A DNA stretch of 20,849 nt, from positions 1 through 20,849 of the IMG/VR virus record IMGVR_UViG_2778261244_000002; one strand, given 5' to 3'. This document shows positions 1,054 to 18,117 of the stretch, one piece after another. Every line of letters starts with the position of its first letter. Within the stretch, counting starts at the first letter, position 1. The notes beneath the pieces were generated by a model. It was not told the origin of the DNA. It did not search any database and saw only the letters and a list, made by a program, of their open reading frames with translations. Position numbers and translations under genes: made by a program. Origin of the DNA: a virus. Taxonomy: Duplodnaviria > Heunggongvirae > Uroviricota > Caudoviricetes.

Positions 1054-1084
1054 AAAAAATGCCCTCCAGTAGAGAGCATTTTTA

Positions 1085-1100
1085 CTGTATATATAACCAG
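1085..1100. promoter_or_regulatory. Candidate LexA box upstream of int
   Basis: CTGTATATATAACCAG (CTGT-N8-CCAG, AT-rich spacer) 32-47 nt upstream of the int ATG; one mismatch to the CTGT-N8-ACAG consensus. Confidence 0.35.
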
Positions 1101-1241
1101 TGTCAATGTATGAAATCCTACGACCATACATCTCACTGAAGCCATAATGAAGTTGGCTATTCTTTTTGCTATGTGAGCATGTAACTTTTGCGGTTAACCT
1201 GCGGCTCATTTTTATTTTAGACGCAGATATAAAAGCAAAAG

Positions 1242-1448: not shown

Positions 1449-2105
1449 CTATTTAACATACTTGACTGTTAAACTTATAATTTTACCAATTATTTCAATG
1501 TCTTCTATCTTGCATTCGAAGGCTCTGTTTCCACCCTCGACGAAGATTCTTCCACCGGGTAAACGAGTAATGTCACGGATCGTTATTTCGCCATCAATAC
1601 TTATTACCCATTTACCATCACGTATATCATCAAATTCTTTATCACAAATAAATTCAGAATTGTTATCTGTGATGACAAAAGGTTTTTTAAACGTAGAGGG
1701 TAGAAATCCCTTATCAAAAATATAAAAACCGTCTTTCTGCAATGCTCCATCAGACAATAAATATTTTTCTACTTCTATAGTATTTGTATTTGCTGATGCT
1801 TGCTTTGAACCATGCCCTGTTGTTAGCCAATTAAGCGAGGTGCCCGTTTCAAGGGCGCACTGGATTACCCAATCTGCTGGAAAAATATCACGCATATAGC
1901 GCGTTGCCATGGTGCTCTTAGAAACACCTAAATGATCACAGAGAGCCTGACGGGTACCGAACCCATATGCTTCAACTAAACGTTCTATGGCTTTCTTACC
2001 GCCGCTATTGAAATCCACAAGTCCTCCAAAGAAATCCAAAATTCGTTGACAGATTCCAAAAGCGATCTTAAAGTTGAGCCAGAAGTGTTCTTTTGGAGCC
2101 TTCAC
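1449..2105 (-). CDS. cI: 186-type CI immunity repressor (HTH N-terminal domain)
   Basis: N-terminal segment (ERLVEAYGFGTRQALCDHLGVSKSTMATRYMRD...CALETGTSLNWLTTGHG) resembles 186 CI. Divergent from the apl/cII operon and upstream of int. The first in-frame start is GTG at 2103-2105; the true start is uncertain (internal GTG or TTG possible). Confidence 0.8.
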   Translation of the reverse strand: MKAPKEHFWLNFKIAFGICQRILDFFGGLVDFNSGGKKAIERLVEAYGFGTRQALCDHLGVSKSTMATRYMRDIFPADWVIQCALETGTSLNWLTTGHGSKQASANTNTIEVEKYLLSDGALQKDGFYIFDKGFLPSTFKKPFVITDNNSEFICDKEFDDIRDGKWVISIDGEITIRDITRLPGGRIFVEGGNRAFECKIEDIEIIGKIISLTVKYVK

Positions 2106-2367: not shown

Positions 2368-2431
2368 TAGATGTCTATTTTCGCAATAAGACGCTGAGTT
2401 CGATTTTGCGATAAGTTCGGAGTTGAAAACC

Positions 2432-2941
2432 ATGTTTGATTACCAAGTTTCCAAACATCCACATTTTGATGAAGCCTGTCGTGCATTCGCACTGCGCCAC
2501 AATCTGGTGCAACTGGCAGAACGTGCTGGCATGAATGTGCAGATTCTGCGGAACAAGCTGAACCCATCTCAACCTCATTTATTAACCGCACCAGAAATCT
2601 GGCTGCTTACCGATCTGACAGAAGATTCAACGCTGGTAGATGGTTTTCTGGCACAGATTCACTGCCTGCCATGTGTACCGATTAATGAGGTTGCAAAAGA
2701 GAAACTGCCGCATTACGTCATGAGCGCAACTGCAGAGATTGGACGTGTTGCAGCAGGTGCGGTATCTGGTGATGTAAAAACTAGTGCCGGTCGTCGTGAT
2801 GCTATCAGCAGCATTAACTCTGTAACACGACTGATGGCGCTGGCTGCTGTTTCATTGCAGGCCCGTTTACAGGCTAATCCTGCGATGGCGAGTGCAGTTG
2901 ATACCGTGACTGGCCTCGGTGCTTCATTCGGTTTGCTGTGA
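2432..2941 (+). CDS. cII: 186 CII-like lysogeny-establishment transcriptional activator
   Basis: Translation from [24 protein letters not shown]... is recalled as near-identical to 186 CII and gives the same 169-aa length; the ATG at 2432 is preferred over the track start at 2423. Confidence 0.85.
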
Positions 2942-2948
2942 GGTGCTT

Positions 2949-3982: not shown

Positions 3983-4281
3983 CAAGGGCAGTGCGTATCC
4001 ATCAATTAAAAATTGCACCTAAGTATTTCAACGCTGTGGTTGCAGGTCAAAAGACGGCTGAACTTCGTAAAGACGATCGTGGCTATAAAGTTGGTGATGT
4101 TCTTTCTCTTTGCGAATGGAAGCATGGCGTATTTACGGGTAGGGAATGGGCCGCTGTTATCTCTCATGTGCTTCCGGTTAATGACGTCATGGCAGTTTCA
4201 GAACAATGGGTGATGCTATCAATTCGCCCATTAACCCCATTAGAAGCTTTAGGATATGTTATTGCAGGAGGTGCTGTATGA
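3979..4281 (+). CDS. ASCH/DUF3850-like small protein
   Basis: ATG at 3979 overlaps the upstream stop (ATGA); translation [42 protein letters not shown] resembles PUA-like ASCH/DUF3850 proteins common in P2-like early operons. Confidence 0.55.
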
Positions 4282-5135
4282 GCACCATCCTGAAATGGGC
4301 GGGTAATAAAACTGCCATTATGTCCGAACTGAAAAAACATCTTCCTGCTGGCCCGCGACTGGTTGAACCTTTCGCGGGTTCCTGTGCTGTGATGATGGAG
4401 ACGGATTACCCCAGCTATCTTGTTGCGGATATTAATCCTGATTTAATCAACCTCTATAAAAAGGTTGCTGCTGATTGCGAGGCGTTTATATCTCGTGCCA
4501 GAGCTTTATTTGAGGAAGCAAACAGGGAGGTGGCTTATTACAACATAAGGCAGGAGTTTAATTACTCCACTGAAATTACTGATTTCATGAAAGCGGTATA
4601 TTTCCTGTATCTCAATCGTCATGGTTACCGTGGGTTATGTCGTTATAACAAGAGCGGGCATTTCAACATTCCATACGGTAATTATAAAAATCCGTATTTC
4701 CCTGAAAAAGAAATTCGCGCATTTGCAGAGAAAGCCCAGCGAGCAACGTTTATCTGCGCCAGCTTTGATGAAACGCTGGCGATGCTGCAGGTGGGGGATG
4801 TGGTGTATTGCGATCCGCCTTATGACGGTACGTTTTCCGGCTATCACACTGACGGCTTCACTGAAGATGACCAGTATCACCTGGCATCTGTTCTTGAATA
4901 TCGATCATCAGAAGGTCATCCAGTCATTGTTTCTAACAGTGACACATCCCTGATCCGTTCGCTGTATCGAAATTTCACTCACCACTACATCAAGGCAAAA
5001 CGCAGCATCGGCGTGTCGGCTGGCGAGAGTAAATCTGCAACAGAAATCATTGCTGTTTCCGGGGCGCGCTGCTGGGTGGGATTTGATCCTTCGTGTGGCG
5101 TAGATAGTTCTGCTGTGTACGAGGTGCGTGTATGA
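4278..5135 (+). CDS. dam: DNA adenine (N6) methyltransferase, Dam family
   Basis: N-terminal ILKWAGNK...EPFAGSCAV (AdoMet-binding motif) and catalytic DPPY ([12 protein letters not shown]); ATG at 4278 overlaps the upstream stop and its own stop overlaps the A start (ATGA). Confidence 0.85.
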
Positions 5136-7546
5136 GTCATGACGATATGAGCAACTCTAGCGGCTTTAACGAGGCCGCTGCAGCATTTTCATGGAACGGC
5201 CCGAAAAAGGCCATTAACCCTTATCTGGACCCGGCGGAAGTTGCTCCGGAGTCTGCACTTTTAAACCTGATCACTCTGTACGCTGCCGATAATGAGCAGG
5301 AACAGCTGCGCCGCGATGCACTGAGTGAGCAGGTCTGGGAGCGTTATTTCTTTAATGAATCTCGTGATCCTGTCCAGCGCGAAATGGAGCAGGATAAGCT
5401 CATTAGCCGGGCAAAGCTAGCGCATGAACAGCAGCGTTTTAACCCGGACATGGTCATTCTGGCGGACGTCAGCGCCCAGCCCACCCATATTAGCAAGCCG
5501 CTGATGCAACGTATCGAATACTTCAGCAGCCTGGGCAGGCCAAAGGCTTATTCCCGCTATTTGCGTGAGACGATTAAGCCATGTCTGGAGCGACTGGATT
5601 GTGTACGTGACAGTCAGCTGTCTGCTTCTTTCCGTTTTATGGCAAGCCATCAAGGGCTGGAGGGCCTGCTGATTCTGCCTGAAATGAGTCAGGATCAGGT
5701 GAAACGCCTGTCCACCCTGGTAGCTGCGCATATGAGCATGTGCCTTGATGCAGCTTGTGGCGATTTGTATGCCACCGATGACGTTAAGCCAGAAGAAATC
5801 CGCAAGACATGGGAAAAGGTGGCGGCGGAAACCCTGCGTCTGGATGTCATCCCACCTGCGTTTGAGCAACTCCGTCGGAAAAGAAACCGCCGTAAACCCG
5901 TGCCCTATGAACTCATTCCGGGTTCGCTGGCGCGTATGTTGTGCGCCGACTGGTGGTATCGGAAATTATGGAAGATGCGTTGCGAATGGCGGGAAGAGCA
6001 GTTGCGTGCTGTCTGCCTGGTCAGCAAAAAAGCATCTCCCTATGTCAGCTATGAAGCCGTGATGCATAAACGTGAGCAGCGCCGTAAGTCGCTGGAGTTT
6101 TTCCGTTCTCATGAACTGGTGAACGAAGACGGCGACACGCTGGACATGGAGGATGTGGTAAACGCCAGCAGCAGCAACCCTGCGCATCGCCGCAATGAGA
6201 TGATGGCCTGTGTTAAAGGTCTGGAGCTTATCGCGGAAATGCGCGGTGACTGCGCCGTTTTCTACACTATCACCTGTCCGTCACGTTTCCATTCCACGCT
6301 CAACAACGGCAGACCCAACCCGACCTGGACAAATGCGACGGTAAGACAAAGCAGCGATTATATGGTCGGCATGTTTGCTGCATTTCGTAAGGCAATGCAC
6401 AAAACCGGGTTGCGCTGGTATGGCGTGCGGGTGGCTGAGCCGCACCATGACGGTACTGTGCACTGGCATCTCATGTGCTTCATGCGTAAAAAAGACCGCC
6501 GCGCCATCACTGCATTACTGCGTAAGTTTGCCATCCGTGTAGACCGCGAGGAGCTGGGCAACAACACGGGGCCACGCTTTAAGTCTGAGCTGATTAACCC
6601 GCGCAAAGGAACACCGACAAGCTACATCGCGAAATACATCAGTAAGAACATTGACGGGCGTGGTCTGGCTGGCGAGATCAGCAAGGAAACGGGTAAATCC
6701 CTGCGTGATAACGCCGAATACGTTAATGCCTGGGCGTCTCTGCATCGTGTTCAGCAGTTCCGCTTCTTTGGTATTCCGGGACGTCAGGCTTACCGTGAAC
6801 TTCGCTTGCTGGCTGGTCAGGCGGCAAGGCAACAGGGTGACAAAAAAGCAGGTGCGCCGATACTGGATGACCCGCGCCTTGATGCCATCCTGGCTGCTGC
6901 TGATGCTGGTTGTTTTGCCACCTACATCATGAAGCAGGGCGGCGTACTGGTTCCCCGTAAATATCACCTTATCAGAACCGCTTATGAAATCAACGAAGAG
7001 CCGACCGCCTATGGCGATCACGGCATTCGTATTTATGGCATCTGGTCACCCATTGCAGAGGGCAAGATCTGCACTCATGCAGTGAAGTGGAAAATGGTTC
7101 GTAAGGCCGTTGACGTTCAGGAGGCGGTAGCCGACCAGGGCGCTTGCGCCCCTTGGACTCGTGGCAATAACTGTCCCCTTGCTGAAAATTTGAACCAACA
7201 AGGGAAAGACAAATCAGCTGATGGGGACTCCAGAACGGATATTACCCGTATGAATGACAAGGAGTTGCATGATTACCTGCACAGTATGAGCAAAAAAGAG
7301 CGCCGGGAACTGGCTGCAAGGTTACGCCAGGTGAAACCGAAACGGCGTAAAGACTACAAACAGCGAATTACAGACCATCAGCGACAGCAGCTCGTCTATG
7401 AACTGAAGTCCAGGGGATTTGATGGCAGCGAGAAAGAAGTCGATTTGCTCCTTCGCGGCGGCAGTATTCCGTCAGGAGCAGGCCTGCGTATCTTCTATCG
7501 GAACCAGCGTCTGAAGGAAGATGATAAGTGGCGGAACCTATATTAA
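5132..7546 (+). CDS. A: Rolling-circle replication initiation endonuclease (P2 gpA-like)
   Basis: 804-aa protein with an HUH-type motif ([13 protein letters not shown]) and a tyrosine-containing YIAKYISK segment; lies between the early genes and the accessory region as in P2/186. Confidence 0.9.
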
Positions 7547-7660: not shown

Positions 7661-7698
7661 TATGTGTACAGTATTGTTTTGGTGTCATAGGAGGAAAG

Positions 7699-7887: not shown

Positions 7888-7897
7888 GGTGACTTTT

Positions 7898-8131: not shown

Positions 8132-8137
8132 GATGTT

Positions 8138-8175
8138 GCCCCCAGGAGGATTCATTCTGATGGGGGCTAGTTTGG
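8138..8175 (+). terminator. Putative hairpin terminator after the dinI-like gene
   Basis: Inverted repeat GCCCCCA...TGGGGGC followed by TAGTTTG; weak T-tract. Confidence 0.35.
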
Positions 8176-8321
8176 GCAATGAGTGAAATAAGGCGTAAGG
8201 TGGGCGGTTATTTTGATAAGTGATCGTCCGCTTTGTGTCAGAAGCAGAAGTGGGAGTGTCTGAGACTCTCTAAAAGTTGATGATTCACTTACAAAACCAT
8301 TTTCCTGATGGATGCTTACAC

Positions 8322-8657
8322 TTACGAATGATCATTCTGTTTAGTCTTCATGAGAAAATCCCGAATCTTTGCCAAGTTTGAATTTTCGGGGATTGAATCC
8401 ATGTACGGATCACGCTCAAACACTAATTGCTCAGATTCAACGAAAGCCTGCCACTCTACTGGGTCTAGCTCAAATCCCATTGCTGTCATATCACTTTCAT
8501 CTTCCCCCTCGATCCAGTGGACTAAATAAAACAATTCATCATCAGGAGAATCATCCTCACCATCAACAATATCAACATCGGTTACAGTGATACGTAGGGT
8601 GGGATCGATTTTTGAGACATAAATTCCTAACTGTGGTATAGGGGGAATATTGTTCAT
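8322..8657 (-). CDS. Highly acidic hypothetical protein (111 aa)
   Basis: AAAGGAG RBS before the ATG at 8657; strongly acidic composition (GEDDSPDDE, EGEDESD); no recognised domain; oriented toward the dinI-like gene. Confidence 0.6.
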   Translation of the reverse strand: MNNIPPIPQLGIYVSKIDPTLRITVTDVDIVDGEDDSPDDELFYLVHWIEGEDESDMTAMGFELDPVEWQAFVESEQLVFERDPYMDSIPENSNLAKIRDFLMKTKQNDHS

Positions 8658-9036
8658 GGAAACTCCTTTTATTGGTGTTTGCTATTTGAATAAAAATACG
8701 CCAAACAGAGTGTTAACTGTGAATATGGAAAGAATCGTTGTAAGTACCCCGCTTAGGTGTCCCATTCTATTTTAGAGGTTCTCGTGCATATGGATTATGT
8801 TATCTGAAAGTTAACTTCCGCTTCCCGTTCACAGCGAACATTCATCTTTGTAAACCCGTATGATCCGTTTTTCAAGTGGCCATTCAGATACGGATTTTTA
8901 CTTCTTTGACAGTGCATGACTATGCTGCATGAAATCGCATGATCGATTGAGGATCGTCTTTGCTCAGATCTGCCAGAACTGGCGGGCTTTTGCTCATGTC
9001 ATGCATGTGCATGAAAACCACTGCATAAAGCGGGCA

Positions 9037-9060
9037 GGCGTGGCGGGGATACGAGCGCGC
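9037..9060 (+). other. cos-like GC-rich motif (tentative)
   Basis: GGCGTGGCGGGGATACGAGCGCGC resembles the start of the P2/186 cohesive end as remembered (GGCG[A/T]GGCGGGGAAAGCA...), within an otherwise AT-rich intergenic region; the match is partial. Confidence 0.25.
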
Positions 9061-9136
9061 GGATGAGTAATCTATACCATCATCTTGATAAAAGTATTAA
9101 AAATGGTAAATTTAGCAAGCTACATATTAAAGGAAA

Positions 9137-10534
9137 ATGAAGATGTATGAAGTAATTGATATATCAGCGCAGGAAATTAAGGCGTTGTTAAACACTGCTG
9201 AAGATCATTTCAATGATTTTAAAAGTAAGCAAATAGCGCCTAATAAATTACAAGAAACTTTTGTAGCATTTGCAAATGCTGATGGCGGTAATATTTATAT
9301 TGGCATAGAGGATGCAGCTTCGGGGAGAGAGCGTATATCTGGTTTCAATGAGCCAGAGGAAGCGAATGCTATTATTTCGACCTTATTGGAAAATACTAAT
9401 CCAGCTGTTGAGAATGTTGAGGTGGAATATTTAAGAACACCTTCCAATGGATTGATTTTACATGTGGATATACCAAAAAGCCCCAAAGTTCATTACACGG
9501 CCTCTGGCGATTGCTTTATAAGAGCTAACGCGCAAAAATTAAAAATAAAAGGTGAGCGAATTACTCAGCTTTCCTATTCTAAAGGCGCAGAACCTTATGA
9601 AAAAAAAGCAGTGGATATAGTTGAAGTAGAAGATATTCTTGAAAGTGAATATTATTCTGATTATTTACGTAGAATAGGAACGACTCAGTCACCGAGAGTT
9701 TTTTTAAAAAAACAACGACTGTTAACTAAGAAAGATGGTGAATTTGTCCCGAATGTAGGCTGTGTTTTACTATTTGATGAAGAGCCTCAAGGATGTTTAG
9801 ATACTCGATGTGCTGTAAAAGTATATCGGCTTAGAACAACTGAAGCAGAGTACAAACGTGAACAATTACAGGAAGATCCTGTAACGATTGAGGGGCCACT
9901 TGAAGTGGTTATTTTAAATACAATAGCAAAAGTAAAAGAATATGTTGATGGAGCATCATTCAAAGACGGCGAAAATCTAGTAAAACTTAGCTATCCTGCA
10001 GAAGCATTGAAGGAAATATTAGTTAATGCTGTTATTCATAGAGATTACAGCCAAAAGGATGATGTGCACGTAAAAGTTTATGACAACCGGATTGAAGTTC
10101 AAAGTCCAGGCAGATTGCCTGGATACATGACTATTAATAATTTATATGAAGAGCGGTTTTCTCGTAATCCAAATTTAGTGCGTTTGTTGCATAAACTTCC
10201 CAATCCAGTGAACCATGATATTGGTGAGGGGCTTGATACTGCAAAAAATGAATTGCGTAAGGCCGGGTTGGTAGCCCCGGTATTTGAAGAAAGGGGCAAT
10301 AATTTTGTTGTAATAGTTAAGCATCAAACAATAGCCTCAATTGAGGATGTGATTATTAATTATTTTAAAGAAAATCCAACGGGACAGCTCACAAATAAGT
10401 TGGTTAGACAATTAAGTGGCGAAGATGACCTTCAAAAGGTTAAAAAGGCATTGCAAAAGTTAAGGGAGGAGGGCGTAATAAAACCATTAGATCCTAACGC
10501 GAATCCTTTCAAATTTAAATATATTAAAGCTTAA
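9137..10534 (+). CDS. Schlafen-like AlbA_2 domain + HATPase_c_4-like domain + C-terminal wHTH protein (COG2865-type); candidate anti-phage cargo
   Basis: N-terminal EDHFNDFKS...ETFVAFANADGGNIYIGIED matches the AlbA_2/Schlafen-like signature; central LKEILVNAVIHRDYSQKDDVHVKVYDNRIEVQSPGRLPG matches HATPase_c_4; C-terminus looks like a winged HTH. AT-rich relative to flanks; followed by a hairpin terminator. The start may be the second ATG at 9143, which has better RBS spacing. Confidence 0.75.
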   Translation: MKMYEVIDISAQEIKALLNTAEDHFNDFKSKQIAPNKLQETFVAFANADGGNIYIGIEDAASGRERISGFNEPEEANAIISTLLENTNPAVENVEVEYLRTPSNGLILHVDIPKSPKVHYTASGDCFIRANAQKLKIKGERITQLSYSKGAEPYEKKAVDIVEVEDILESEYYSDYLRRIGTTQSPRVFLKKQRLLTKKDGEFVPNVGCVLLFDEEPQGCLDTRCAVKVYRLRTTEAEYKREQLQEDPVTIEGPLEVVILNTIAKVKEYVDGASFKDGENLVKLSYPAEALKEILVNAVIHRDYSQKDDVHVKVYDNRIEVQSPGRLPGYMTINNLYEERFSRNPNLVRLLHKLPNPVNHDIGEGLDTAKNELRKAGLVAPVFEERGNNFVVIVKHQTIASIEDVIINYFKENPTGQLTNKLVRQLSGEDDLQKVKKALQKLREEGVIKPLDPNANPFKFKYIKA

Positions 10535-10537
10535 GTT

Positions 10538-10566
10538 AAAGGTGGAGGTTGTCTCCACCTTTTTTC
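10538..10566 (+). terminator. Rho-independent terminator
   Basis: AAAGGTGGAG-GTTGT-CTCCACC followed by TTTTTTC, immediately after the 465-aa gene stop. Confidence 0.75.
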
Positions 10567-10585
10567 ATAGGTAATGATTTTTAAA

Positions 10586-11614
10586 TTATAGTTTATAGTG
10601 TTCGAAAGTTATTGCTTCTTCATTGATCCAATAGTTGAGATCTTGTAACTTCTTCTGAAGTGGCATCAGTTCATTCCGAACAAATACCCGGCTGGCCTTC
10701 TCCACATCCCCAAACCCTCCAACATTATTAGGCATAATCCCCATCATTTGCGGCGGCACGCGGTGCGCAGCCATCATGTCGTCGCGGCTGACATTTTTGA
10801 TATTCAGAAATTCATCCTTCGCCGCGACTTCTGATAACGGGATGATTTGAAGCCCGTCCTTTTTGCCGTTAGGCGAGTACATAAACAGATTGCGGAAGTT
10901 GCCTGGACCTTTGGCGCTTTTCATTGCGTTGCGGAGGTTGTTCACATCCTCCTGGTTCTGCGCGGCATCGGTCATGTACATGATGAAGCCTGCATGGCTG
11001 CCGTTGATGTAATACTTACGGCGGAACAGCGTGGCGGACTCGTTGAGCAGGGCTGACGGAATGGCAGAAAGATAGCCGGGCAGGCCGTAGATCTCCTGGT
11101 TAATGTCCGGTTCCATCAGATGAAAAATGCTGCCTTTCGTGAACTGATACGGCTGGGTTGTCATACCGTATTGCACAAACCAGTAGGTATCCAGGTCTAA
11201 CCCGCGTCGGGTGTATTTTGCCAGAGCAGGCTCAAGGGCGATAACTTCACCGAAGCGGTTCGTGCGTTTCTCCAGGTAGGCGTTACCAAATACCAGATAG
11301 TCCTGCACAAAACGTGAAAAAGCCTGCTGGCTGAGCAGCGGATGGGGGATGTAGGTACTGGTCAGAATGTTGCATTTCACCGCAATTGGTGAACTGTGAT
11401 GCACGGCGGCGCGGAAGGTGCGTGCCAGTCCGTCAAAGCTTACTGGCGGCTCATACCAGCGATCTGTCTGTACGCATTCCACATAGTCCAGTAGTTCGCG
11501 GCGGTCCAGAACAGGAACGGGATCACCGAAGCTGAATGCTTCGGCTGTAGTTTGACTTTTATGCTGGATCTGGTTCGTCGACGCAGCGCGGTTCTTCTTA
11601 CTCTTTCCCATCAA
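10586..11614 (-). CDS. Q: Portal (capsid) protein, P2 gpQ-like
   Basis: 342-aa protein of gpQ-like length, translationally coupled to the upstream P remnant (its start overlaps the P stop), in the P-Q leftward arrangement of P2. Confidence 0.85.
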   Translation of the reverse strand: MMGKSKKNRAASTNQIQHKSQTTAEAFSFGDPVPVLDRRELLDYVECVQTDRWYEPPVSFDGLARTFRAAVHHSSPIAVKCNILTSTYIPHPLLSQQAFSRFVQDYLVFGNAYLEKRTNRFGEVIALEPALAKYTRRGLDLDTYWFVQYGMTTQPYQFTKGSIFHLMEPDINQEIYGLPGYLSAIPSALLNESATLFRRKYYINGSHAGFIMYMTDAAQNQEDVNNLRNAMKSAKGPGNFRNLFMYSPNGKKDGLQIIPLSEVAAKDEFLNIKNVSRDDMMAAHRVPPQMMGIMPNNVGGFGDVEKASRVFVRNELMPLQKKLQDLNYWINEEAITFEHYKL

Positions 11615-12285
11615 AAAATCTCCACAATATTACTGGTATTGGCGGACTCGCCCTGCAGTGGTTCGTTAAACAGTGCGTGCATTGTTGCCCAGGCCAGATC
11701 GGCGTGGCTGGCTTCTTCGCTGCGGCTGGCTTCATAGGTCGGGCGGTTGCCGCTGGCGGTGGTGGCGCGACGGATTGCCATGAATGACTGCGCAATGTCG
11801 GTGTGCCCGGCGTCAAACTCCAGACGGCGGTGGCTGATAATGTCGTAGGCCTTGAGCACCAGGGCGTTTTTAACGTTGGGGTTGTAGACAAACTCCCGGA
11901 CGGCAGGAAAGAATGCTTTCACGTTCTCGTAAACCCCGTGACCAACGCCGGTTGAGTCGATACCGATATAAGTCACGTTGTACTGTTCGGTCAGTTTTTT
12001 GATGGCGTCAGCCTGAGCGCGGAAGTCCATCCCGCGCCACTGGTGACGCTCAAGAATGCGGAATTTACCGCCCGGTACGGCTGGCGGTGCCACCACCACG
12101 CATCCGGCACTGTCGCCGTTCTGAGTACCTTTTGCGGGGTCATAACCGATCCATACTTCGCGCCAGCCAAACGGGCGCAGGGCCAGTGCATGGAAGTCGG
12201 TCCAGATTTCCCAGCTGTCCACCATGCACGCCTGCAGTTCGCTGAGCGGGAACACGGACGCGAGATCGTCCACGAACTCGCACAT
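11611..12285 (-). pseudogene. P: Terminase large subunit (gpP-like), C-terminal nuclease-domain fragment only
   Basis: Only about 224-263 aa of an expected ~590-aa terminase remain (open frame reaches at most 12402); the sequence contains the RNaseH-like nuclease region (GYDPAKG...GIDSTGVGHGV) and lacks the N-terminal ATPase. Confidence 0.7.
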
Positions 12286-12545
12286 CAGCAGGTTCTGGTA
12301 TCCAGCGTGACGATACCGGGGAAGTGCAGGCCGTGGAGCTTGTCGTGCGTGGACGTCACAAAGAAGTGGATTCCGGCGAGTGGAAGACGGGCGAAAGCAA
12401 CACTACCAAAGTGACCAGTACCAACAGCTACGCGAAGCTGACCATCAATGGTGAGGTGCTCTATGAAGTGGACCTTATCAACATGGTGGAAATTGTGGAC
12501 GGTGTGGACCTGATGGAAGCGCACCGCAACGCCCTCGGCCTCTGA
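12246..12545 (+). pseudogene. Probable tail-tube (FII-like) C-terminal fragment
   Basis: Open frame without a credible start, ending 55 nt upstream of gene E; called on position (FII precedes E in P2) and tail-protein-like sequence (KLTINGEVLYEVDLINMVEIVDGVDL). Confidence 0.3.
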
Positions 12546-12599
12546 TGTATCTGAACGGCGCGGGATACCGCGCCAGAACCCAATTGACAGGACAGCAAA

Positions 12600-12902
12600 A
12601 TGAGCGATAAGCAGACTGAAAAGACTATTCAACTGGATACCCCCATCAAGCGCGGTAAAACAGAAATCACCGAAATTGTGCTGCGTAAACCGCAGTCCGG
12701 TGCGCTGCGCGGTACACGCCTGCAGGCCATTATGGATATGGATGTAAACGCGATGATGACCGTGATCCCCCGCATCTCCAGTCCGGCACTGACCGCACAG
12801 GAAATTGCAGAGATGGACCCGGCAGATCTCACTGCCATGTCGGTTGAGGTTGTCACTTTTTTGTTGAAGAAGTCGGTGCTTGCCGGTTTACCGACAGCCT
12901 GA
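12600..12902 (+). CDS. E: Tail assembly chaperone gpE
   Basis: 100-aa ORF directly upstream of the tape measure gene with the slippery heptamer TTTTTTG at 12857-12863 near its end. Confidence 0.8.
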   Translation: MSDKQTEKTIQLDTPIKRGKTEITEIVLRKPQSGALRGTRLQAIMDMDVNAMMTVIPRISSPALTAQEIAEMDPADLTAMSVEVVTFLLKKSVLAGLPTA

Positions 12903-13036
12903 CGGTTGACGATCTGGTGGCAGATATCGCCACCATTTTTCACTGGCCGCCATCCGTTACTGACGTTATGCCGCTGACCGAAGTGCTGGAATGGCGGTAT
13001 AAAGCGATTCAGAGAAGCGGGGCCAACGATGAGTGA
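12600..13036 (+). CDS. E': gpE+E' -1 frameshift fusion product
   Basis: After a -1 slip at T_TTT_TTG (12857-12863) the -1 frame stays open to a TGA at 13034-13036, adding about 58 aa (...VEEVGACRFTDSLTVDDLVADIATIFHWPPSVTDVMPLTEVLEWRYKAIQRSGANDE) and overlapping the T start. Confidence 0.65.
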
Positions 13037-16000
13037 TAATAACCTGCGCCTTCAGGTCATTCTTAATGCGGTTGACAAGCTCACCCGCCCATTTCGATCC
13101 GCGCAGGCCAGTTCAAGAGAACTGGCTGCTGCTGTCAAAAAATCCCGCGATGCAATAAAGCAGCTTGATCAGGCCGGGAGCAGTCTGGACAGCTTCCGAA
13201 AGCTGCAGGCAGAAAATCAGAAATTAGGCGACAGGCTGAACTATGCCCGCCAGCGTGCAAATTTGCTCAGTCAGGAACTGGGAGCGATGGGGCCGCCTTC
13301 GCAACGTCAGGTTGTTGCTCTGGGCCGTCAACGGCTGGCTGTTCAGCGCCTGGAAGAACGCCAGAAAAAGCTGCAGCAGCAGACGGCGCTTGTGCGTGCT
13401 GAACTGTACCGGGCGGGAATTTCTGCGAAAGATGATGCGGGAGCAACTGCCCGTTTAGCCCGTGAAACATCACGTTATAACCAGGAATTGTCGAAACAGG
13501 AGGCGCGGCTGAAGCGACTGGGTGAAGCTCAGCGCAGGATGAATGCGGCGCGTGCCAGTTATGCCCGTTCGCTGGAGGTGCGCGATCGTATTGCAGGAGC
13601 CGGAGCCACTACCACGGCTGCAGGGCTGGCAATGGGGACGCCAGTGATGGCGGCAGTAAAAAGCTATACCAGCATGGAAGATGCCATGAAAGGTGTGGCA
13701 AAGCAGGTCAATGGTCTGCGTGACGATAATGGAAACCGTACTGCACGTTTTTATGAAATGCAGGATGCCATCAAGGCTGCCAGCGAACAGTTGCCGATGG
13801 AAAACGGTGCGGTGGACTTCGCTGCACTGGTTGAAGGTGGTGCGCGCATGAACGTCGCAGACCCTGACGACAGCTGGGAAGACCAGAAACGTGACCTGCT
13901 GGCCTTCGCCAGTACGGCAGCAAAGGCGGCAACAGCCTTTGAGCTGCCAGCGGATGAACTGTCAGAAAGTCTGGGGAAAATCGCCCAGCTCTACAAAATA
14001 CCTACCCGCAATATTGAACAGCTCGGCGATGCGCTGAACTATCTGGATGATAACGCCATGTCGAAAGGGGCGGACATCATTGATGTGATGCAACGTCTGG
14101 GCGGTGTGGCTGACCGTCTGGATTATCGTAAAGCGGCGGCACTGGGTTCCACCTTTCTGACACTGGGCGCTGCGCCGGAGGTTGCAGCCAGTGCAGCAAA
14201 CGCGATGGTGCGTGAATTGTCCATTGCCACCATGCAAAGCAAGAGTTTCTTTGCAGGGATGAATCTGCTGAAGCTCAATCCTGAAGTGATTGAAAAGCAG
14301 ATGACGAAGGATGCGATGGGAACTATCCAGCGTGTGCTGGAGAAGGTGAACGCACTGCCGCAGGACAAGCGTCTGTCTGCCATGACCATGTTGTTTGGTA
14401 AAGAGTTTGGCGATGACGCGGCGAAACTGGCAAACAACCTGCCGGAACTACAGCGCCAGCTAAAACTGACAGCGGGCAATGATGCGCTCGGTTCCATGCA
14501 GAAAGAATCCGACATCAACAAGGACTCACTTTCTGCTCAGTGGTTGCTGGTTAAAACCGGAGCGCAGAATACCTTCAGCAGCCTGGGCGAAACGCTGCGC
14601 CAGCCGCTGATGGATATTCTGTACACGGTGAAAAGCGTTACGGGAGCGTTGCGTCGCTGGGTGGAAGCTAACCCGGAACTCACGGGCACACTGATGAAAG
14701 TAGCCGCTATTGTGGCTGCGGTTACCGTAGGCCTCGGCACCTTGGCTGTGGCGCTGGCTGCAGTGCTGGGGGCGCTGGCAGTCATCCGTCTGGGATTCTC
14801 TGTGCTGGGCATCAAAACGTTACCTTCCGTTACGGCAGCAGTAACACGAACTAGCAGCGCGTTGTCCTGGCTGGCTGGCGCTCCACTGGCAGTGCTGCGA
14901 CGCGGGCTTGCTTCATCGGGTAACGCAGCGGGTTTACTTACTGCGCCGTTGTCGTCTTTGCGCCGTACGGCATCACTGACGGGAAATGTCCTGAAAACTG
15001 TAGCAGGTGCGCCGGTTGCACTATTGCGGTCTGGATTATCCGCTTTACGTGCTGTTGCTGTGATGTTTATGAATCCTCTGGCGGTACTGCGCGGTGGACT
15101 GGCTGCCGCAGGCGCGGTGCTTCGTGTGCTTGCATCTGGTCCGCTGGCGATGCTGCGCGTTGCCCTGTATGCCATATCTGGTCTGTTAGGTGCTCTGCTC
15201 AGTCCGATAGGTCTTGTGGTTACTGCACTGGCGGGCGTGGCGCTGGTTGTCTGGAAATACTGGCAACCCATCACCGCATTTCTCGGTGGCGTGGTGGAAG
15301 GATTCAAAGCGGCGGCAGGTCCCATCAGTGCTGCATTCGAACCACTTAAGCCTGTGTTTCAGTGGATTGGCGACAAAGTACAGGCGCTGTGGGGCTGGTT
15401 TACTGATCTGCTGACGCCCGTTAAGTCGACCTCTGCCGAACTGCAGAGTGCAGCGGCAATGGGGCGGCGATTCGGGGAGGCACTGGCGGAAGGGCTGAAT
15501 ATGGTCATGCATCCGCTGGACTCCCTGAAATCCGGCGTTTCCTGGTTGCTGGAGAAGCTCGGTATTGTCAGTAAAGAGGCCGCAAAGGCAAAACTGCCGG
15601 AAAGCGTGACGCGTCAGCAACCTGCGACGGTGAATGCAGACGGTAAAGTGATGATGCCATCGGGTGGTTTTCCATCATGGGGATATGGCTTTGCGGGGAT
15701 GTATGACAGCGGCGGGTATATCCCGCGCGGGCAGTTTGGCATCGTCGGTGAAAACGGGCCGGAAATTGTTAACGGCCCGGCAAATGTGACCAGCCGGAGA
15801 AATACAGCTGCACTGGCTGCCGTTGTTGCCGGAATGATGGGCGTTGCTGCCGCGCCAGCAGAGCTTCCACCGTTGCACCCTTTGGCACTTCCCGCGAAAG
15901 GTGGAGAAGCAATTGTGAGTCGCGCAGCCACTGTGCCACTCGTTCAACGGATTGAGGCACCGACGCAGATCATCATTCAGACGCAGCCAGGACAAAGTGC

Positions 16001-16106
16001 GCAGGATATTGCGCGGGAGGTGGCACGCCAGCTTGATGAACGTGAACGCAGGCTGAAGGCAAAAGCCAGGAGTAACTACAGCGATCAGGGGGGATACGAC
16101 GCATGA
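13029..16106 (+). CDS. T: Tail tape measure protein, gpT-like
   Basis: 1025-aa protein with an N-terminal coiled-coil-like region, central hydrophobic segments, repeated (A/L)LR(R/S/G)GL-type stretches and a Gly-rich C-terminal part; position after E/E'. Confidence 0.85.
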   Translation: MSDNNLRLQVILNAVDKLTRPFRSAQASSRELAAAVKKSRDAIKQLDQAGSSLDSFRKLQAENQKLGDRLNYARQRANLLSQELGAMGPPSQRQVVALGRQRLAVQRLEERQKKLQQQTALVRAELYRAGISAKDDAGATARLARETSRYNQELSKQEARLKRLGEAQRRMNAARASYARSLEVRDRIAGAGATTTAAGLAMGTPVMAAVKSYTSMEDAMKGVAKQVNGLRDDNGNRTARFYEMQDAIKAASEQLPMENGAVDFAALVEGGARMNVADPDDSWEDQKRDLLAFASTAAKAATAFELPADELSESLGKIAQLYKIPTRNIEQLGDALNYLDDNAMSKGADIIDVMQRLGGVADRLDYRKAAALGSTFLTLGAAPEVAASAANAMVRELSIATMQSKSFFAGMNLLKLNPEVIEKQMTKDAMGTIQRVLEKVNALPQDKRLSAMTMLFGKEFGDDAAKLANNLPELQRQLKLTAGNDALGSMQKESDINKDSLSAQWLLVKTGAQNTFSSLGETLRQPLMDILYTVKSVTGALRRWVEANPELTGTLMKVAAIVAAVTVGLGTLAVALAAVLGALAVIRLGFSVLGIKTLPSVTAAVTRTSSALSWLAGAPLAVLRRGLASSGNAAGLLTAPLSSLRRTASLTGNVLKTVAGAPVALLRSGLSALRAVAVMFMNPLAVLRGGLAAAGAVLRVLASGPLAMLRVALYAISGLLGALLSPIGLVVTALAGVALVVWKYWQPITAFLGGVVEGFKAAAGPISAAFEPLKPVFQWIGDKVQALWGWFTDLLTPVKSTSAELQSAAAMGRRFGEALAEGLNMVMHPLDSLKSGVSWLLEKLGIVSKEAAKAKLPESVTRQQPATVNADGKVMMPSGGFPSWGYGFAGMYDSGGYIPRGQFGIVGENGPEIVNGPANVTSRRNTAALAAVVAGMMGVAAAPAELPPLHPLALPAKGGEAIVSRAATVPLVQRIEAPTQIIIQTQPGQSAQDIAREVARQLDERERRLKAKARSNYSDQGGYDA

Positions 16107-16588
16107 TGATGGTGCTGGGATTGTACGTGTTTATGCTGCGCACCGTTCCGTATCAGGAACTGCAGTATCAACGCAGCTGGCGACATGCGGCAAACAGTCG
16201 GGTAAACCGACGTCCGTCCACGCAGTTTCTGGGACCGGAAAACGACATGCTGACGCTTTCCGGTGTTCTTATGCCGGAGATAACAGGCGGCAGGCTGTCG
16301 TTGCTGGCACTGGAGCAGATGGCAGAACAGGGGAAAGCATGGCCCCTGATTGAAGGCAGCGGCACGATTTACGGCATGTATGTGATTGAGGGACTGAATC
16401 AGACTAAAACGGAGTTTTTCCGCGACGGTATGCCGCGCCGCATTGAGTTCACCCTGTCGCTCAAACGAGTGGATGAATCCCTGTCCGATATGTTCGGTGA
16501 TCTCAGTGCGCAACTGAATAATCTGCAGGACACGGCAACGTCTGCCTTAAGCGATATCAGTAAAACGGTGGGAGGGCTGCTGTCGTGA
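16103..16588 (+). CDS. U: Tail protein gpU-like
   Basis: 161-aa ORF translationally coupled to T (ATG overlaps the T stop) with a CAGGGGGGA RBS; size and position match P2 gpU. Confidence 0.8.
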   Translation: MMMVLGLYVFMLRTVPYQELQYQRSWRHAANSRVNRRPSTQFLGPENDMLTLSGVLMPEITGGRLSLLALEQMAEQGKAWPLIEGSGTIYGMYVIEGLNQTKTEFFRDGMPRRIEFTLSLKRVDESLSDMFGDLSAQLNNLQDTATSALSDISKTVGGLLS

Positions 16589-17685
16589 ATTTCAGCTCTG
16601 AACTGCTTAACAAAGGCAACAAAACTCCCGCATTCAGCATCAGTATTGAGGGCAGGGATATCACCACTGTGCTGGATAACCGCCTGATGAGTCTGACGCT
16701 GACGGATAACCGGGGCTTTGAAGCGGACCAGCTTGATCTGGAACTGGATGACGCTGACGGAAAAATCGTGCTGCCGCGCCGTGGTGCGGTCATTACGCTG
16801 GCGCTGGGCTGGAAGGGGCAGCCGCTTTTCCCGAAAGGGGCATTCACAGTGGACGAGATTGAACACACTGGCGCACCGGACCGCCTGACTATCCGGGCGC
16901 GAAGTGCTGATTTTCGGGAAACGCTGAATACCCGCCGTGAAAAATCGTGGCATAAGACCACCGTCGGGGAAGTGGTGAAGGAAATAGCCGCGCGGCACAA
17001 GCTGAAGATGGCACTGGGTAAAGACCTGTCGGATAAGCCCGTGGAGCATATAGACCAGACTAATGAGAGTGACGGCAGTTTTCTGATGCGGCTGGCGCGA
17101 CAGTACGGTGCCATCGCGTCGGTGAAAAATGGCAATCTGTTATTCATCCGGCAGGGGCAGGGCAAAAGCGCCACTGGTAAACCTCTGCCAGTGATCACTA
17201 TCACACGCAAGGACGGCGACAGTCACCGATTTACCCTGGCAGATCGCGGAGCCTACACGGGCGTAATTGCCAGCTGGTTGCATACCCGCGAACCTGCGAA
17301 GAAAGAAAGCACCACGGTGAAGCGTAAGCGCAGAACTAAGAAGCAGAAGAAAGAGCCAGAAGCGAAGCAGGGCGATTACCTGGTGGGTACGGATGAAAAC
17401 GTGCTGGTACTTAATCGCACTTATGCCAACCGGAGCAACGCCGAACGAGCGGCGAAAATGCAGTGGGAACGCCTGCAACGCGGCGTTGCGTCATTCTCGC
17501 TACAACTGGCAGAAGGGCGGGCAGATCTCTACACGGAAATGCCAGTGAAAGTCAGTGGCTTTAAACAGCCGATAGATGATGCGGAATGGACCATTACGAC
17601 TCTGACGCATGCCGTCAGCCCGGATAACGGTTTTACGACCAGTCTGGAGCTTGAAGTGAGGATTGATGATTTCGAAATGGAATGA
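16585..17685 (+). CDS. D: Tail protein gpD-like
   Basis: GTG start overlapping the U stop, GGGAGGG RBS; 366 aa; T-U-D-ogr order matches P2. Confidence 0.8.
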   Translation: MNFSSELLNKGNKTPAFSISIEGRDITTVLDNRLMSLTLTDNRGFEADQLDLELDDADGKIVLPRRGAVITLALGWKGQPLFPKGAFTVDEIEHTGAPDRLTIRARSADFRETLNTRREKSWHKTTVGEVVKEIAARHKLKMALGKDLSDKPVEHIDQTNESDGSFLMRLARQYGAIASVKNGNLLFIRQGQGKSATGKPLPVITITRKDGDSHRFTLADRGAYTGVIASWLHTREPAKKESTTVKRKRRTKKQKKEPEAKQGDYLVGTDENVLVLNRTYANRSNAERAAKMQWERLQRGVASFSLQLAEGRADLYTEMPVKVSGFKQPIDDAEWTITTLTHAVSPDNGFTTSLELEVRIDDFEME

Positions 17686-17775: not shown

Positions 17776-17994
17776 ATGATGATTTGCCCACTGTGTGGAA
17801 GTGCCGCCCATACTCGCAGCAGTTTTCAGGTATCTTCATTGACCAAAGAGCGTTACAACCAGTGCCAGAACATTAACTGCAGCCATACTTTTGTTACCCA
17901 TGAAACTTTTGTTCGTTCGATTGCAACGCCAAAAGAGTCAAATCCGGTTCAGCCGCATCCAATGAAATCAGGACAGGTGGCGCTCTCTCTTTGA
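17776..17994 (+). CDS. ogr: Ogr/Delta-type zinc-finger late-gene transcriptional activator
   Basis: MMICPLCGSAAHTRSS...ERYNQCQNINCSHTF matches the Ogr C2-C2 zinc-finger pattern (CPLC...CQNxNC); the ATG at 17776 is preferred over the track start. Confidence 0.85.
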   Translation: MMICPLCGSAAHTRSSFQVSSLTKERYNQCQNINCSHTFVTHETFVRSIATPKESNPVQPHPMKSGQVALSL

Positions 17995-18016: not shown

Positions 18017-18074
18017 TCGTAAAAAAACAGTGTTTCTAACATCATGATTTTAAACAGCTTAAATTTCAGGCAAC

Positions 18075-18117
18075 AAAAAACCCATCAACCTTGAACCGAA
18101 ATGGCGGGGTTGATGGG
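18075..18117 (-). terminator. Rho-independent terminator (minus strand), downstream of ybjL
   Basis: Perfect 10-bp inverted repeat CCCATCAACC / GGTTGATGGG with a 16-17-nt loop, followed on the minus strand by TTTTTT. Confidence 0.6.

What the first reader, a model, noticed from the sequence alone, without database searches (positions are those of the whole stretch)
12246..12402. Large internal deletion joining truncated terminase P to a tail-tube remnant
The minus-strand P frame retains only the C-terminal nuclease region and ends within 12285-12402, where a plus-strand frame without a start runs into E. All genes expected between P and E in a P2-type map are missing (capsid, lysis, baseplate, tail fibre, sheath), so the prophage cannot form particles yet keeps int, cI, replication, Q, T, U, D and ogr. 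No IS element is visible at the junction.
Basis: partly seen in the sequence, partly recalled or inferred. Interest (0 to 1): 0.5.

Follow-up and report, generated by a model that had tools for sequence, protein, structure and literature searches.

The report
Deletion scar in defective P2-like prophage
An E. coli P2/186-type prophage has lost about 14.5 kb of head, lysis, baseplate, fibre and sheath genes in a clean deletion that joins half a terminase gene to half a tail-tube gene; this is ordinary prophage decay, though related prophages reuse the same breakpoints surprisingly often.

Summary
The window holds a P2/186-like (Peduoviridae) prophage between rcdA and ybjL of E. coli. At 12299-12301 the 3' 691 nt of terminase gene P (minus strand) is joined directly to the last 244-247 nt of tail-tube gene FII (plus strand) through a 3-nt microhomology, TAT. 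No IS or filler DNA lies between them.

Against intact relatives, 14.5-14.8 kb is missing: 23 whole genes covering capsid, small terminase, lysis, baseplate, fibre, invertase and sheath. All three intergenic regions that carry late-promoter motifs in the intact relative are gone too.

Retained and uninterrupted are int, CI, CII, Dam, gpA, cos, a defence-hotspot gene, Q, E/E', T, U, D and ogr. The element cannot make particles or lyse the cell.

The retained tail genes show no sign of domestication. They have no promoter here, and T is truncated or frameshifted in sister remnants.

No complete E. coli genome among 5,426 has this junction. One Logan assembly is 100% identical across it.

This is a known kind of object and scores low.

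One side observation is unexplained. Deletion endpoints in these prophages recur at nucleotide precision, including both endpoints used here and a strong hotspot in E' (intact here at about 12975).

The parts
1..1209 (-). Integrase ORF. The annotated homologues are 343-350 aa, so the true start is probably internal. attL lies outside the window.
   Evidence: Pfam Int_N and Phage_integrase. Homologous 'phage integrase' genes sit next to rcdA in sister loci.
1449..2105 (-). 186-type CI repressor.
   Evidence: Pfam Phage_CI_repr and Phage_CI_C.
2423..2941 (+). CII (CP76) regulator. It begins the early rightward operon, which continues with Fil, DUF5347, DUF2732, TraR-like and ASCH/DUF3850 genes.
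   Evidence: Pfam Phage_CP76. Gene calls in L003.
4278..5135 (+). Dam-type DNA adenine methylase.
   Evidence: Pfam MethyltransfD12. Called as a 285-aa gene in L003.
5132..7546 (+). Replication endonuclease gpA, full length (804 aa).
   Evidence: Pfam Phage_GPA. Same length as in Cartapus.
8912..9061 (.). cos region, retained.
   Evidence: 88% identity to the joined ends of the Cartapus genome, where a putative cos site is annotated.
9137..10534 (+). Low-GC accessory gene (Schlafen/AlbA_2 plus HATPase_c_4) in the gpA-gpQ defence hotspot.
   Evidence: Pfam. PADLOC gives partial matches to pAgo-associated models. GC is 0.36-0.38. The hotspot is described in PMC9122126.
10586..11611 (-). Portal gene Q, intact (341 aa).
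   Evidence: Pfam Phage_portal. Gene call in L003. 94% DNA identity to Cartapus.
11611..12301 (-). Remnant of large terminase gene P: the C-terminal 229 codons plus stop (RNaseH-like nuclease domain). The N-terminal ~358 codons (ATPase) and the promoter are deleted. The first in-frame start is the ATG at 12285.
   Evidence: Pfam Terminase_6C only. Homology to the full-length 588-aa P ends at 12301.
12299..12301 (.). Deletion junction: TAT, present at both parental sites (3-nt microhomology).
   Evidence: Three-way alignments with Cartapus and SHP24. Query coverage 1-152 and 150-301.
12302..12545 (+). Remnant of tail-tube gene FII: the C-terminal 81 codons, with no start codon in context and no promoter.
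   Evidence: Pfam Phage_tube 86-165 of 165. Homology begins at Cartapus 17113.
12600..13036 (+). Tail chaperone genes E (12600-12902) and the E' extension (12917-13036), with the slippery TTTTTTG at 12857.
   Evidence: Pfam Phage_TAC_7. Slippery site and E' translation. Cartapus annotation.
12965..12997 (.). Sequence GTTATGCCGCT^GACCGAAGTGCTGGAATGGCGG, intact here. In other strains it is a recurrent, nucleotide-precise deletion endpoint.
13029..16106 (+). Tape-measure gene T, full length (1025 aa).
   Evidence: Pfam PhageMin_Tail. Same length as in Cartapus.
16103..17685 (+). Tail genes U (16103-16588) and D (16585-17685), full length.
   Evidence: Pfam Phage_P2_GpU and Phage_GPD.
17776..17994 (+). 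ogr late-gene activator (72 aa).
   Evidence: Pfam Ogr_Delta. Gene call in L003.
18072..18085 (.). Candidate att core (AACAAAAAACCCAT) marking the right prophage boundary before ybjL.
   Evidence: The same 14-mer lies between rcdA and int in strain H6.

Best explanation
The window carries a defective P2/186-like prophage integrated between rcdA and ybjL of E. coli.

An illegitimate recombination event joined a site inside terminase gene P to a site inside tube gene FII, through the trinucleotide TAT present at both. The event could have been end-joining after breakage or a replication template switch.

The event removed 14.5-14.8 kb:
- the ATPase half of P;
- O, N, M, L and X;
- holin, lysozyme and spanins;
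- R, S, V, W, J and I;
- the fibre genes and their invertase;
- sheath gene FI and the first 90 codons of FII;
- the P-O, V-upstream and FI-upstream intergenic regions, where P2 places its four Ogr-dependent late promoters.

Consequences:
- Shown from gene content: no capsid, no DNA packaging, no functional tail and no lysis are possible.
- Inferred: Q and E-E'-T-U-D are left as promoterless passengers.
- Inferred: immunity (CI), integration, replication, cos and the accessory gene in the gpA-gpQ defence hotspot remain potentially functional.
- Inferred: losing the lysis and late genes removes the lethal cost of induction while keeping immunity and the defence gene. This would explain why such remnants persist.

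The flanks carry no indels and are 98.7-99.9% identical to intact relatives. The deletion therefore looks recent relative to phage divergence.
For: - **Breakpoint mapping.** Alignment to two references puts the breakpoints at 12301 and 12299 with TAT shared. The same coordinates came from 5,426 complete E. coli genomes.
- **Truncated domains.** Pfam finds only Terminase_6C in the P remnant and only the C-terminal half of Phage_tube in the FII remnant.
- **Deleted gene list.** Taken from the Cartapus annotation and from a near-complete prophage at the same locus with the same accessory gene, strain 20AR0354. The left flank is 99.35% and the right flank 98.7% identical to it, both with 0 gaps.
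- **Late promoters.** TGT-N12-ACA motifs sit at Cartapus 3716, 9817 and 15568, all inside the deleted interval. None remains in an intergenic part of the window's late region.
- **Retained genes.** All have full-length Pfam matches and the same lengths as in intact phages.
- **cos.** Retained at 8912-9061.
- **Junction is real.** Reproduced in an independent assembly.
- **Literature.** Defective P2-like prophages with conserved defence genes are described in PMC13586616. Preferential loss of lytic-function genes from prophages is described in PMC7744054.
Against: - A 3-nt overlap has roughly a 6% chance of arising at a random join, so microhomology-driven joining is likely but not proven.
- Whether one event or several nested events produced the junction cannot be told from the end state.
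- Both endpoints are reused in other strains. F1005 uses the same P site with a different partner. WCHEC050613 has an IS1 abutting the same FII site. A more specific breakage process or an IS1-containing intermediate is therefore not excluded.
- Expression, excision and replication of the remnant were not tested.
Confidence: 0.88

Rival explanations
1. The junction was made by joining two site-specific breaks or stalls at recurrently fragile positions in P2-like DNA (P ...CTGGTA(T)^ and FII ...CTCTAT^CC), not by a random illegitimate event. The outcome is the same defective prophage, but the endpoints were determined by a nicking, cleaving or stalling activity.
For: - The window's P endpoint recurs, within the microhomology, in strain F1005. 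That prophage sits at a different chromosomal site (ssrA), and the endpoint is joined there to T rather than FII.
- The window's FII endpoint recurs within 0-1 nt in WCHEC050613.
- A site in E' serves as endpoint in at least 10 different junctions.
- Breakpoints in that 120-nt window occur in 22 of 991 records, against 6 of 2,062 in two control windows. Fisher p = 6e-7.
- Other sites are reused too: Cartapus 2799, 19645 and about 19990.
Against: - No shared motif was found among the reused sites.
- No unusual DNA hairpin was found at the E' site: z = -0.36.
- The sites do not resemble the phage invertase crossover sites.
- The E' site has no counterpart in gene A.
- For the window's two endpoints only one additional user each was seen. 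The joint chance of that is roughly 0.006, by my own estimate.
- No enzyme was identified.
Confidence: 0.3
2. The deletion passed through an IS1-containing intermediate. IS1 was inserted at, or transposed intramolecularly to, the FII site. It then made an adjacent deletion reaching P and was later lost.
For: In WCHEC050613, at the same rcdA/ybjL locus, an IS1B abuts FII at the same nucleotide (+/-1) as the window's right breakpoint. It has no target duplication, which indicates an IS1-mediated deletion.
Against: - The window has no IS1 sequence or footprint. The parental sequences overlap by 3 nt.
- After an adjacent deletion no flanking duplication remains to support clean IS1 excision (established IS1 biology, from my own knowledge).
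- The left partners differ: DUF5347 in WCHEC050613, P in the window.
Confidence: 0.05
3. The retained tail genes (E, T, U, D), with ogr, are a domesticated module kept by selection for a host function.
For: - E, T, U, D and ogr are full length and free of indels here.
- U, D and ogr are present in most of the remnants examined. D is truncated in ECCWS199 and EC581.
Against: - Sheath, tube, baseplate, spike and fibre genes are absent, so no contractile device can form.
- The promoter region upstream of FI is deleted.
- In sister remnants T is truncated or frameshifted, E is lost, and D is sometimes truncated.
- Any deletion internal to the prophage keeps the ends, so retention of U-D-ogr is expected without selection.
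Confidence: 0.04
4. Assembly artefact: a chimeric join between two contig ends inside a normal prophage.
For: Strains often carry several P2-like prophages, which break short-read assemblies. L004 and L005 are contigs that end 2 nt upstream of the remnant's ATG, about 14 nt before the junction position.
Against: - An independent Logan assembly gives the identical junction within a 60-kb contig, and a further place was reported.
- A 3-nt overlap cannot cause assembler collapse.
- More than ten analogous remnants exist in finished genomes.
Confidence: 0.02

Closest known systems
Escherichia phage Cartapus (Peduoviridae, Elveevirus; NC_070909) and other intact 186/P2-like prophages of E. coli and Klebsiella
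   Same: - Same gene order and 91-97% DNA identity across CII-gpA, Q-P and FII-ogr.
- Same CI/CII/Fil early region as phage 186, and the same E/E' frameshift arrangement.
   Different: - The window lacks Cartapus 2594-17112 (late genes and late promoters).
- It has a different integrase and attachment site: rcdA/ybjL, against ssrA-type for Cartapus-like elements such as the one in F1005.
- It carries different accessory genes.
Defective P2-like prophages retaining defence genes (PMC13586616); gpA-gpQ defence hotspot of P2-like phages (PMC9122126)
   Same: An incomplete P2-like element with pseudogenised core genes. An apparently intact accessory gene sits in the cos-proximal hotspot between gpA and gpQ.
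   Different: Those papers survey gene content. The passages I searched in them do not mention junction sequences or endpoint reuse. That is a term search of the main text, not a full reading. The accessory gene here (Schlafen/AlbA_2 plus HATPase_c_4) has not been shown to be a defence gene.
Sister deletion remnants, most at the rcdA/ybjL locus (H6, S43, AST205, F829, VE-V11-M, EC3, GF31, D2, ECCWS199, EC581, WCHEC050613; WS4437A-1 at an unchecked locus)
   Same: - Same locus for the eleven strains listed first.
- Same retained arms (int to Q, and U-D-ogr).
- Direct junctions with 1-11 nt microhomology, removing the lysis and morphogenesis genes.
   Different: - Every junction differs from the window's.
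- Each carries a different accessory cargo.
- Many also damage T, E or D.
- One has IS1 at the junction.
Cryptic P2 remnant of E. coli K-12 (ogrK with a gpD fragment); recalled from memory, not tested here
   Same: A P2-family remnant that keeps the ogr-proximal right end.
   Different: The K-12 remnant is far more reduced. The window's element still has about 18 kb, including immunity, replication, cos and Q.

Membership tests
P2/186-like (Peduoviridae) prophage | Characteristic proteins: gpA replication endonuclease, 186-type CI and CII, portal Q, terminase P, FII, E/E', T, U, D, Ogr. | tested here: met
   Pfam matches above the curated cut-offs for all of them.
P2/186-like (Peduoviridae) prophage | Prophage gene order int-CI / early operon-A-(hotspot)-cos-Q-P ... 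FII-E-T-U-D-ogr-att, and nucleotide similarity to classified members. | tested here: met
   Colinear with Cartapus at 91-97% identity, apart from the deletion and the accessory genes. Bounded by rcdA/ybjL, with a shared 14-nt att core candidate.
Defective (cryptic) prophage by internal deletion | Two genes truncated at a common point, each with full-length homologues elsewhere, and essential genes between them absent. | tested here: met
   P and FII are truncated at 12299-12301. Full-length copies are seen in 1,203 and 853 records. 23 genes are missing.
Microhomology-mediated illegitimate recombination | Direct junction with a few bases common to both parental sites and no inserted DNA. | tested here: met
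   TAT is shared. This fits the mechanism but does not prove it.
IS-mediated adjacent deletion | An IS element at the junction. | tested here: not met
   The parental homologies overlap, so there is no room for an IS. By contrast, WCHEC050613 has IS1 at the junction.
Site-specific recombination by the phage DNA invertase (Cin/Gin type) at quasi-sites | Junction sites resembling the 26-bp crossover sites (TTCTC..AAACC NN GGTTT..GAGAA). | tested here: not met
   The real sites lie at Cartapus 13348 and 14879. The junction sites show no resemblance to them.
Tailocin / domesticated contractile tail | Complete sheath, tube, baseplate, spike, fibre and lysis genes without head genes. | tested here: not met
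   Sheath, baseplate, spike, fibre and lysis genes are absent and the tube gene is truncated.
P4-like satellite | P4 markers (alpha primase-helicase, sid, psu, delta, epsilon) with cos. | tested here: not met
   The ORFs that were scanned match P2/186 families, not P4 markers. Only cos is shared.

The most novel reading that the evidence does not exclude
Deletion endpoints in E. coli P2-like prophages are not random. A site-specific break, nick or replication stall acts at a small set of positions. The strongest is GCCGCT^GACCGAAG in E', intact in this window at about 12975. The two sites joined in this window are probably also among them. This activity repeatedly drives inactivation of these prophages. 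If so, the window's scar is one product of an undescribed, sequence-directed route of prophage decay, and the responsible activity could be identified. Candidates are gyrase cleavage, a phage or host nickase, or a defence nuclease.
Probability: 0.3. Interest if true: 0.6.

Novelty: new member of a known kind. Interest (0 to 1): 0.25.

Why it matters
On its own the finding matters little. It documents, at nucleotide resolution, how one P2-like prophage became defective while keeping immunity, replication, cos and a hotspot accessory gene. That fits the published picture of prophage decay and of defence genes stabilised in defective elements.

It is useful for annotation. The 224-codon "terminase" ORF and the 66-73-codon "tube" ORF are pseudogene fragments, and Q, E, T, U and D are promoterless leftovers.

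The wider value is the comparative by-product. At one chromosomal locus, many strains carry independently deleted versions of the same prophage family, and their breakpoints coincide far more often than chance predicts. If that reflects a specific DNA-breaking or stalling activity, it would be a concrete and testable mechanism for recurrent prophage inactivation.

Tried and rejected
**The window's junction**
- An exact-junction scan of the GTDB species representatives found nothing.
- No complete E. coli genome has the junction. The one record covering at least 80% of the query, WS4437A-1, has a different junction (3114|17128).
- A sigma-70 promoter scan around the junction was not enriched and showed nothing upstream of E.

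**Explanations tried for the E' hotspot and other reused endpoints**
- A DNA hairpin at the E' hotspot: not significant.
- Invertase quasi-sites: no resemblance.
- A shared sequence motif among the reused endpoints: none beyond common GC-rich tetramers.
- Similarity of the E' site to a site in gene A, as a possible gpA pseudo-origin: none found. The true P2 nick sequence could not be retrieved from the paper library.
- A cryptic transposon end used in trans: rejected, because 8 of 9 partner sites carry the same TG. That indicates annealing rather than target-independent strand transfer.
- Shared ancestry of the hotspot junctions: rejected. The adjacent T region falls into three allele classes only 51-83% identical to one another, and the U-D-ogr arms are no closer than background.
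- Considered from memory and not testable here: Chi, EcoKI or EcoBI sites, type I CRISPR targeting, a pseudo-cos site, and the gyrase cleavage consensus.

**Searches that gave nothing useful**
- The negated-flank scan of IMG/VR for the P endpoint was too short and returned only normal P genes or chance hits.
- The corresponding scan for the FII endpoint gave nothing relevant.
- A Thiomargarita hit to the E' pattern was a chance match.

Full report
**What the window is**

ORF listing, Pfam scans and BLAST show a P2/186-like prophage lying next to the E. coli gene ybjL.

On the minus strand are int (1-1209) and a 186-type CI (1449-2105).

On the plus strand are:
- CII, Fil, DUF5347, DUF2732, a TraR-like gene and an ASCH/DUF3850 gene;
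- Dam (4278-5135) and gpA (5132-7546);
- DinI;
- a low-GC Schlafen/AlbA_2-HATPase_c_4 gene (9137-10534).

Then come, on the minus strand, portal Q (10586-11611) and a terminase fragment. On the plus strand follow a tube fragment, E/E', T (13029-16106), U, D and ogr (17776-17994). ybjL is at 18230-19915.

In finished genomes the same element sits between rcdA and ybjL. A 14-nt candidate att core, AACAAAAAACCCAT, is at 18072-18085 and recurs at the rcdA side in strain H6.

The closest classified phage is Escherichia phage Cartapus (Peduoviridae, Elveevirus), at 91-97% identity in the shared parts.

**Checking the observation**

Megablast of 10500-13100 against phages and against 5,426 complete E. 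coli genomes gave two separate homologies. One ends at window 12301. The other starts near 12299.

A 301-nt query centred on the junction was covered 1-152 by terminase genes and 150-301 by tube genes.

Three-way alignments with Cartapus and strain SHP24 show the sequence GGTTCTGGTAT|CCAGCGTGACG.
- The left parent reads ...CTGGTAT TCGTCC (Cartapus 2593).
- The right parent reads ...GGCTCTAT CCAGCG (Cartapus 17113).
- TAT is common to both.

The join is therefore direct, with 3 nt of microhomology and no IS or filler.

The P remnant (691 nt, 229 codons plus stop) matches only Terminase_6C. The FII remnant (244-247 nt) matches Phage_tube positions 86-165 of 165.

The first in-frame start in the P remnant is an internal ATG at 12285, which gives the 224-codon ORF in the mechanical list.

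The FII frame ends at its own stop at 12545, and E starts at 12600.

**What is missing and what is left**

In Cartapus coordinates the deletion is 14,522 bp (2594-17112 plus one copy of TAT).

Relative to 20AR0354 the deletion is 14,835 bp. That strain has a near-complete prophage at the same locus with the same accessory gene. Its flanks are 99.35% and 98.7% identical to the window, without a single gap.

Lost are:
- the ATPase part of P;
- O, N, M, L and X;
- holin, endolysin and spanin;
- R, S, a hypothetical gene, V, W, J, I, H and G;
- the invertible fibre segment and its invertase;
- FI and the first 90 codons of FII.

P2 late transcription depends on Ogr acting at four promoters: upstream of P, O, V and FI. 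This is established P2 biology, from my own knowledge.
- The TGT-N12-ACA motifs of Cartapus in exactly those intergenic regions (3716, 9817, 15568, plus 3658 at the P start) all fall in the deleted interval.
- The window keeps none in an intergenic late position.
- A simple sigma-70 scan shows nothing upstream of E.

Q, the P fragment and E-E'-T-U-D are therefore promoterless by inference.

The cos region is retained at 8912-9061. All retained genes have the lengths seen in intact phages.

**How it most likely arose and what it does**

The simplest reading is one illegitimate recombination event at TAT. It made a particle-deficient, lysis-deficient prophage that still has immunity, integrase, replication functions, cos and the accessory gene in the gpA-gpQ hotspot.

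That hotspot is a known reservoir of anti-phage systems in P2-like phages (PMC9122126). Defective P2-like elements with conserved defence genes have been reported (PMC13586616). Preferential loss of lytic-function genes is the general pattern of prophage decay (PMC7744054).

Steps shown:
- the junction;
- the gene content;
- the loss of promoter motifs;
- the integrity of the remaining ORFs.

Steps inferred:
- the mechanism of joining;
- the silence of the tail genes;
- residual excision and replication;
- a selective benefit from losing the lysis genes.

**Is it shared or unique?**

No complete E. coli genome has this junction, and neither do the GTDB representatives.

The exact 224-aa remnant protein led to a Logan contig (SRR5187823, 60 kb) that is 100% identical to the window over 19,239 bp, junction included. 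One further similar place was reported but not shown.

The allele is therefore real but rare or lineage-specific.

**Domestication?**

The rcdA/ybjL locus holds many other remnants, each with its own deletion. The list below also includes WS4437A-1 (chromosomal locus not checked) and F1005 (ssrA locus). Junctions are given as left|right in Cartapus coordinates.

| Strain | Junction(s) |
|---|---|
| H6 | 4238\|17789 |
| S43 | 2526\|17788 |
| AST205 | 2247\|17789 |
| F829 | three deletions |
| VE-V11-M | 2799\|19645 |
| EC3 | 3889\|20210 |
| GF31 | 3725\|18912 |
| D2 | 3272\|19157 |
| SHP24 | 8219\|12963 |
| WS4437A-1 | 3114\|17128 |
| ECCWS199 | 2802\|17237 and 17789\|21743 |
| EC581 | 17268\|17789 and 17842\|21688 |
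| F1005 | 2592\|19996, at the ssrA locus |
| WCHEC050613 | IS1-mediated |

- T is frameshifted or truncated in seven of these strains.
- E is usually lost, and D is truncated in two.
- No tail-gene module is conserved, so the domestication idea is not supported.

These loci were found with queries shaped like the window. Their similar architecture is partly a selection effect and says nothing about frequency.

**An unexpected pattern: reused endpoints**

Four of the first ten remnants shared the same right endpoint inside E'...GCCGCT^GACCGAAGTGCTGG, with four different left partners. I followed this up in four steps.

1. A 120-nt query across the site matched 991 records, 22 of them only partially. 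Both sampled partial matches (TST3, EC581) break at the same spot.
2. Scans with a pattern that excludes the normal left flank found more junctions. These were a food-metagenome contig (partner 4593) and IMG/VR contigs with partners in FI (16012) and even in gpA (30548).
3. ECCWS199 uses the same site from the other side, keeping the left flank.
4. That gives nine different left partners plus one reciprocal use.

The junctions look independent. The adjacent T region belongs to three allele classes that are 51-83% identical to one another, and the U-D-ogr arms are no closer than background.

Control windows of 120 nt, centred on the window's own two breakpoints, showed 5 of 1,208 and 1 of 854 partial matches. 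Fisher p against the E' window is 6e-7.

The partial matches inspected in the controls sit at the window's own breakpoints.
- F1005 is at a different chromosomal site and carries different cargo. It ends P at the same CTGGTA and joins it to T at about 19996. H6 and the metagenome contig also use that T site.
- WCHEC050613 has an IS1B abutting FII at the same nucleotide, +/-1.
- Cartapus 2799 (VE-V11-M, ECCWS199) and 19645 (VE-V11-M, H6) are also reused.

I could not explain this.
- Hairpin propensity is ordinary.
- The sites do not resemble the invertase crossover sites.
- The sites share no motif.
- The E' site has no counterpart in gene A.
- Eight of nine partners of the E' site carry TG at the break. 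This points to annealing of a defined DNA end, or of a stalled 3' end, rather than transposition.
- T^GACC fits the core of the gyrase cleavage preference as I recall it. That is a lead, not a test.

**Verdict**

It is an ordinary prophage-inactivating deletion, a new instance of a known kind, with low intrinsic interest.

The part worth a specialist's attention is the side observation. Breakpoints in this prophage family, including both used here, recur at nucleotide precision. That deserves a proper census and break-mapping experiments.

Noticed in passing
window 12965-12997 (intact here); junctions in L007, L008, L011, L012, L017, L019, L020, L021, L024, L025: The sequence GTTATGCCGCT^GACCGAAGTGCTGGAATGGCGG inside E', about 55 nt upstream of T, is a nucleotide-precise deletion endpoint in at least 10 different junctions. 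Nine have different left partners in P, O, FI, FII and gpA, and one uses the site from the other side. Breakpoints fall in this 120-nt window in 22 of 991 E. coli records, against 6 of 2,062 in two control windows.
   Followed up: partly
window 12299-12301; L022 (F1005) about 9054-9060; L023 (WCHEC050613) about 8997-9001: Both endpoints of the window's own deletion are reused elsewhere. F1005 (ssrA locus) ends P at the same CTGGTA but joins it to T. WCHEC050613 has an IS1B, without target duplication, abutting FII at the same nucleotide (+/-1).
   Followed up: partly
L009, L019 (Cartapus 2799/2802); L009, L007 (19645/19646); L007, L017, L022 (19989-19996): Further reused endpoints occur in P (...ACGGATA^) and at two sites in T (CCGTTA^CGGCAGC and CTGTTA^GGTGCTC). 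Each is used by two or three strains with different partners, mostly with TA microhomology.
   Followed up: partly
window 9137-10534 (+): A low-GC (0.36-0.38) 465-codon ORF with Schlafen/AlbA_2 and HATPase_c_4 domains sits in the gpA-gpQ defence hotspot next to cos. PADLOC gives only partial matches to pAgo-associated models. The same gene is split by a frameshift in strain CUVM3. Sister remnants carry KAP NTPase, TIR, TIGR02391, retron St85, AAA-ATPase/ComF, PIN or DUF4062 genes at this position.
   Followed up: partly
window 13128-13571 (inside T): A segment of about 440 nt in the tape-measure gene occurs in three allele classes that are only 51-83% identical to one another. The rest of T is 94-100% identical among the same phages. 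This is a sharp mosaic block of equal length.
   Followed up: no
window 3979-4281 (+): A 100-codon ASCH/DUF3850 gene lies between the TraR-like gene and Dam. It is absent from Cartapus and SHP24, and homology to both breaks at 3982-4267. It looks like a small inserted accessory gene.
   Followed up: no
window 8322-8657 (-): A 111-codon ORF (DUF8087 according to the Logan gene table) lies between DinI and cos, on the opposite strand to its neighbours. It has no Pfam or PADLOC hit in my scans.
   Followed up: no
L004 and L005 versus window 11611-12287: Two contigs from other samples encode the identical 224-aa C-terminal terminase segment with DNA only 93-94% identical. All differences in that stretch are therefore synonymous, which indicates strong purifying selection on the nuclease domain in functional phages. 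Both contigs end 2 nt upstream of the ATG.
   Followed up: no
L006 (CUVM3) 33400-41800: In CUVM3 the P2-like prophage at rcdA is interrupted in its fibre region and continues into P22-like head genes (portal, scaffold, capsid, terminase). Its T-U-D-ogr arm lies about 56 kb away. This suggests a large rearrangement or inversion between two prophages.
   Followed up: no
window 1-1209 (-): The integrase ORF is open for 402 codons, whereas annotated homologues are 343-350 aa. The first 50 nt of the window (the C-terminal end of int) do not align with SHP24. The window starts exactly at the int stop codon, so attL is not included.
   Followed up: no
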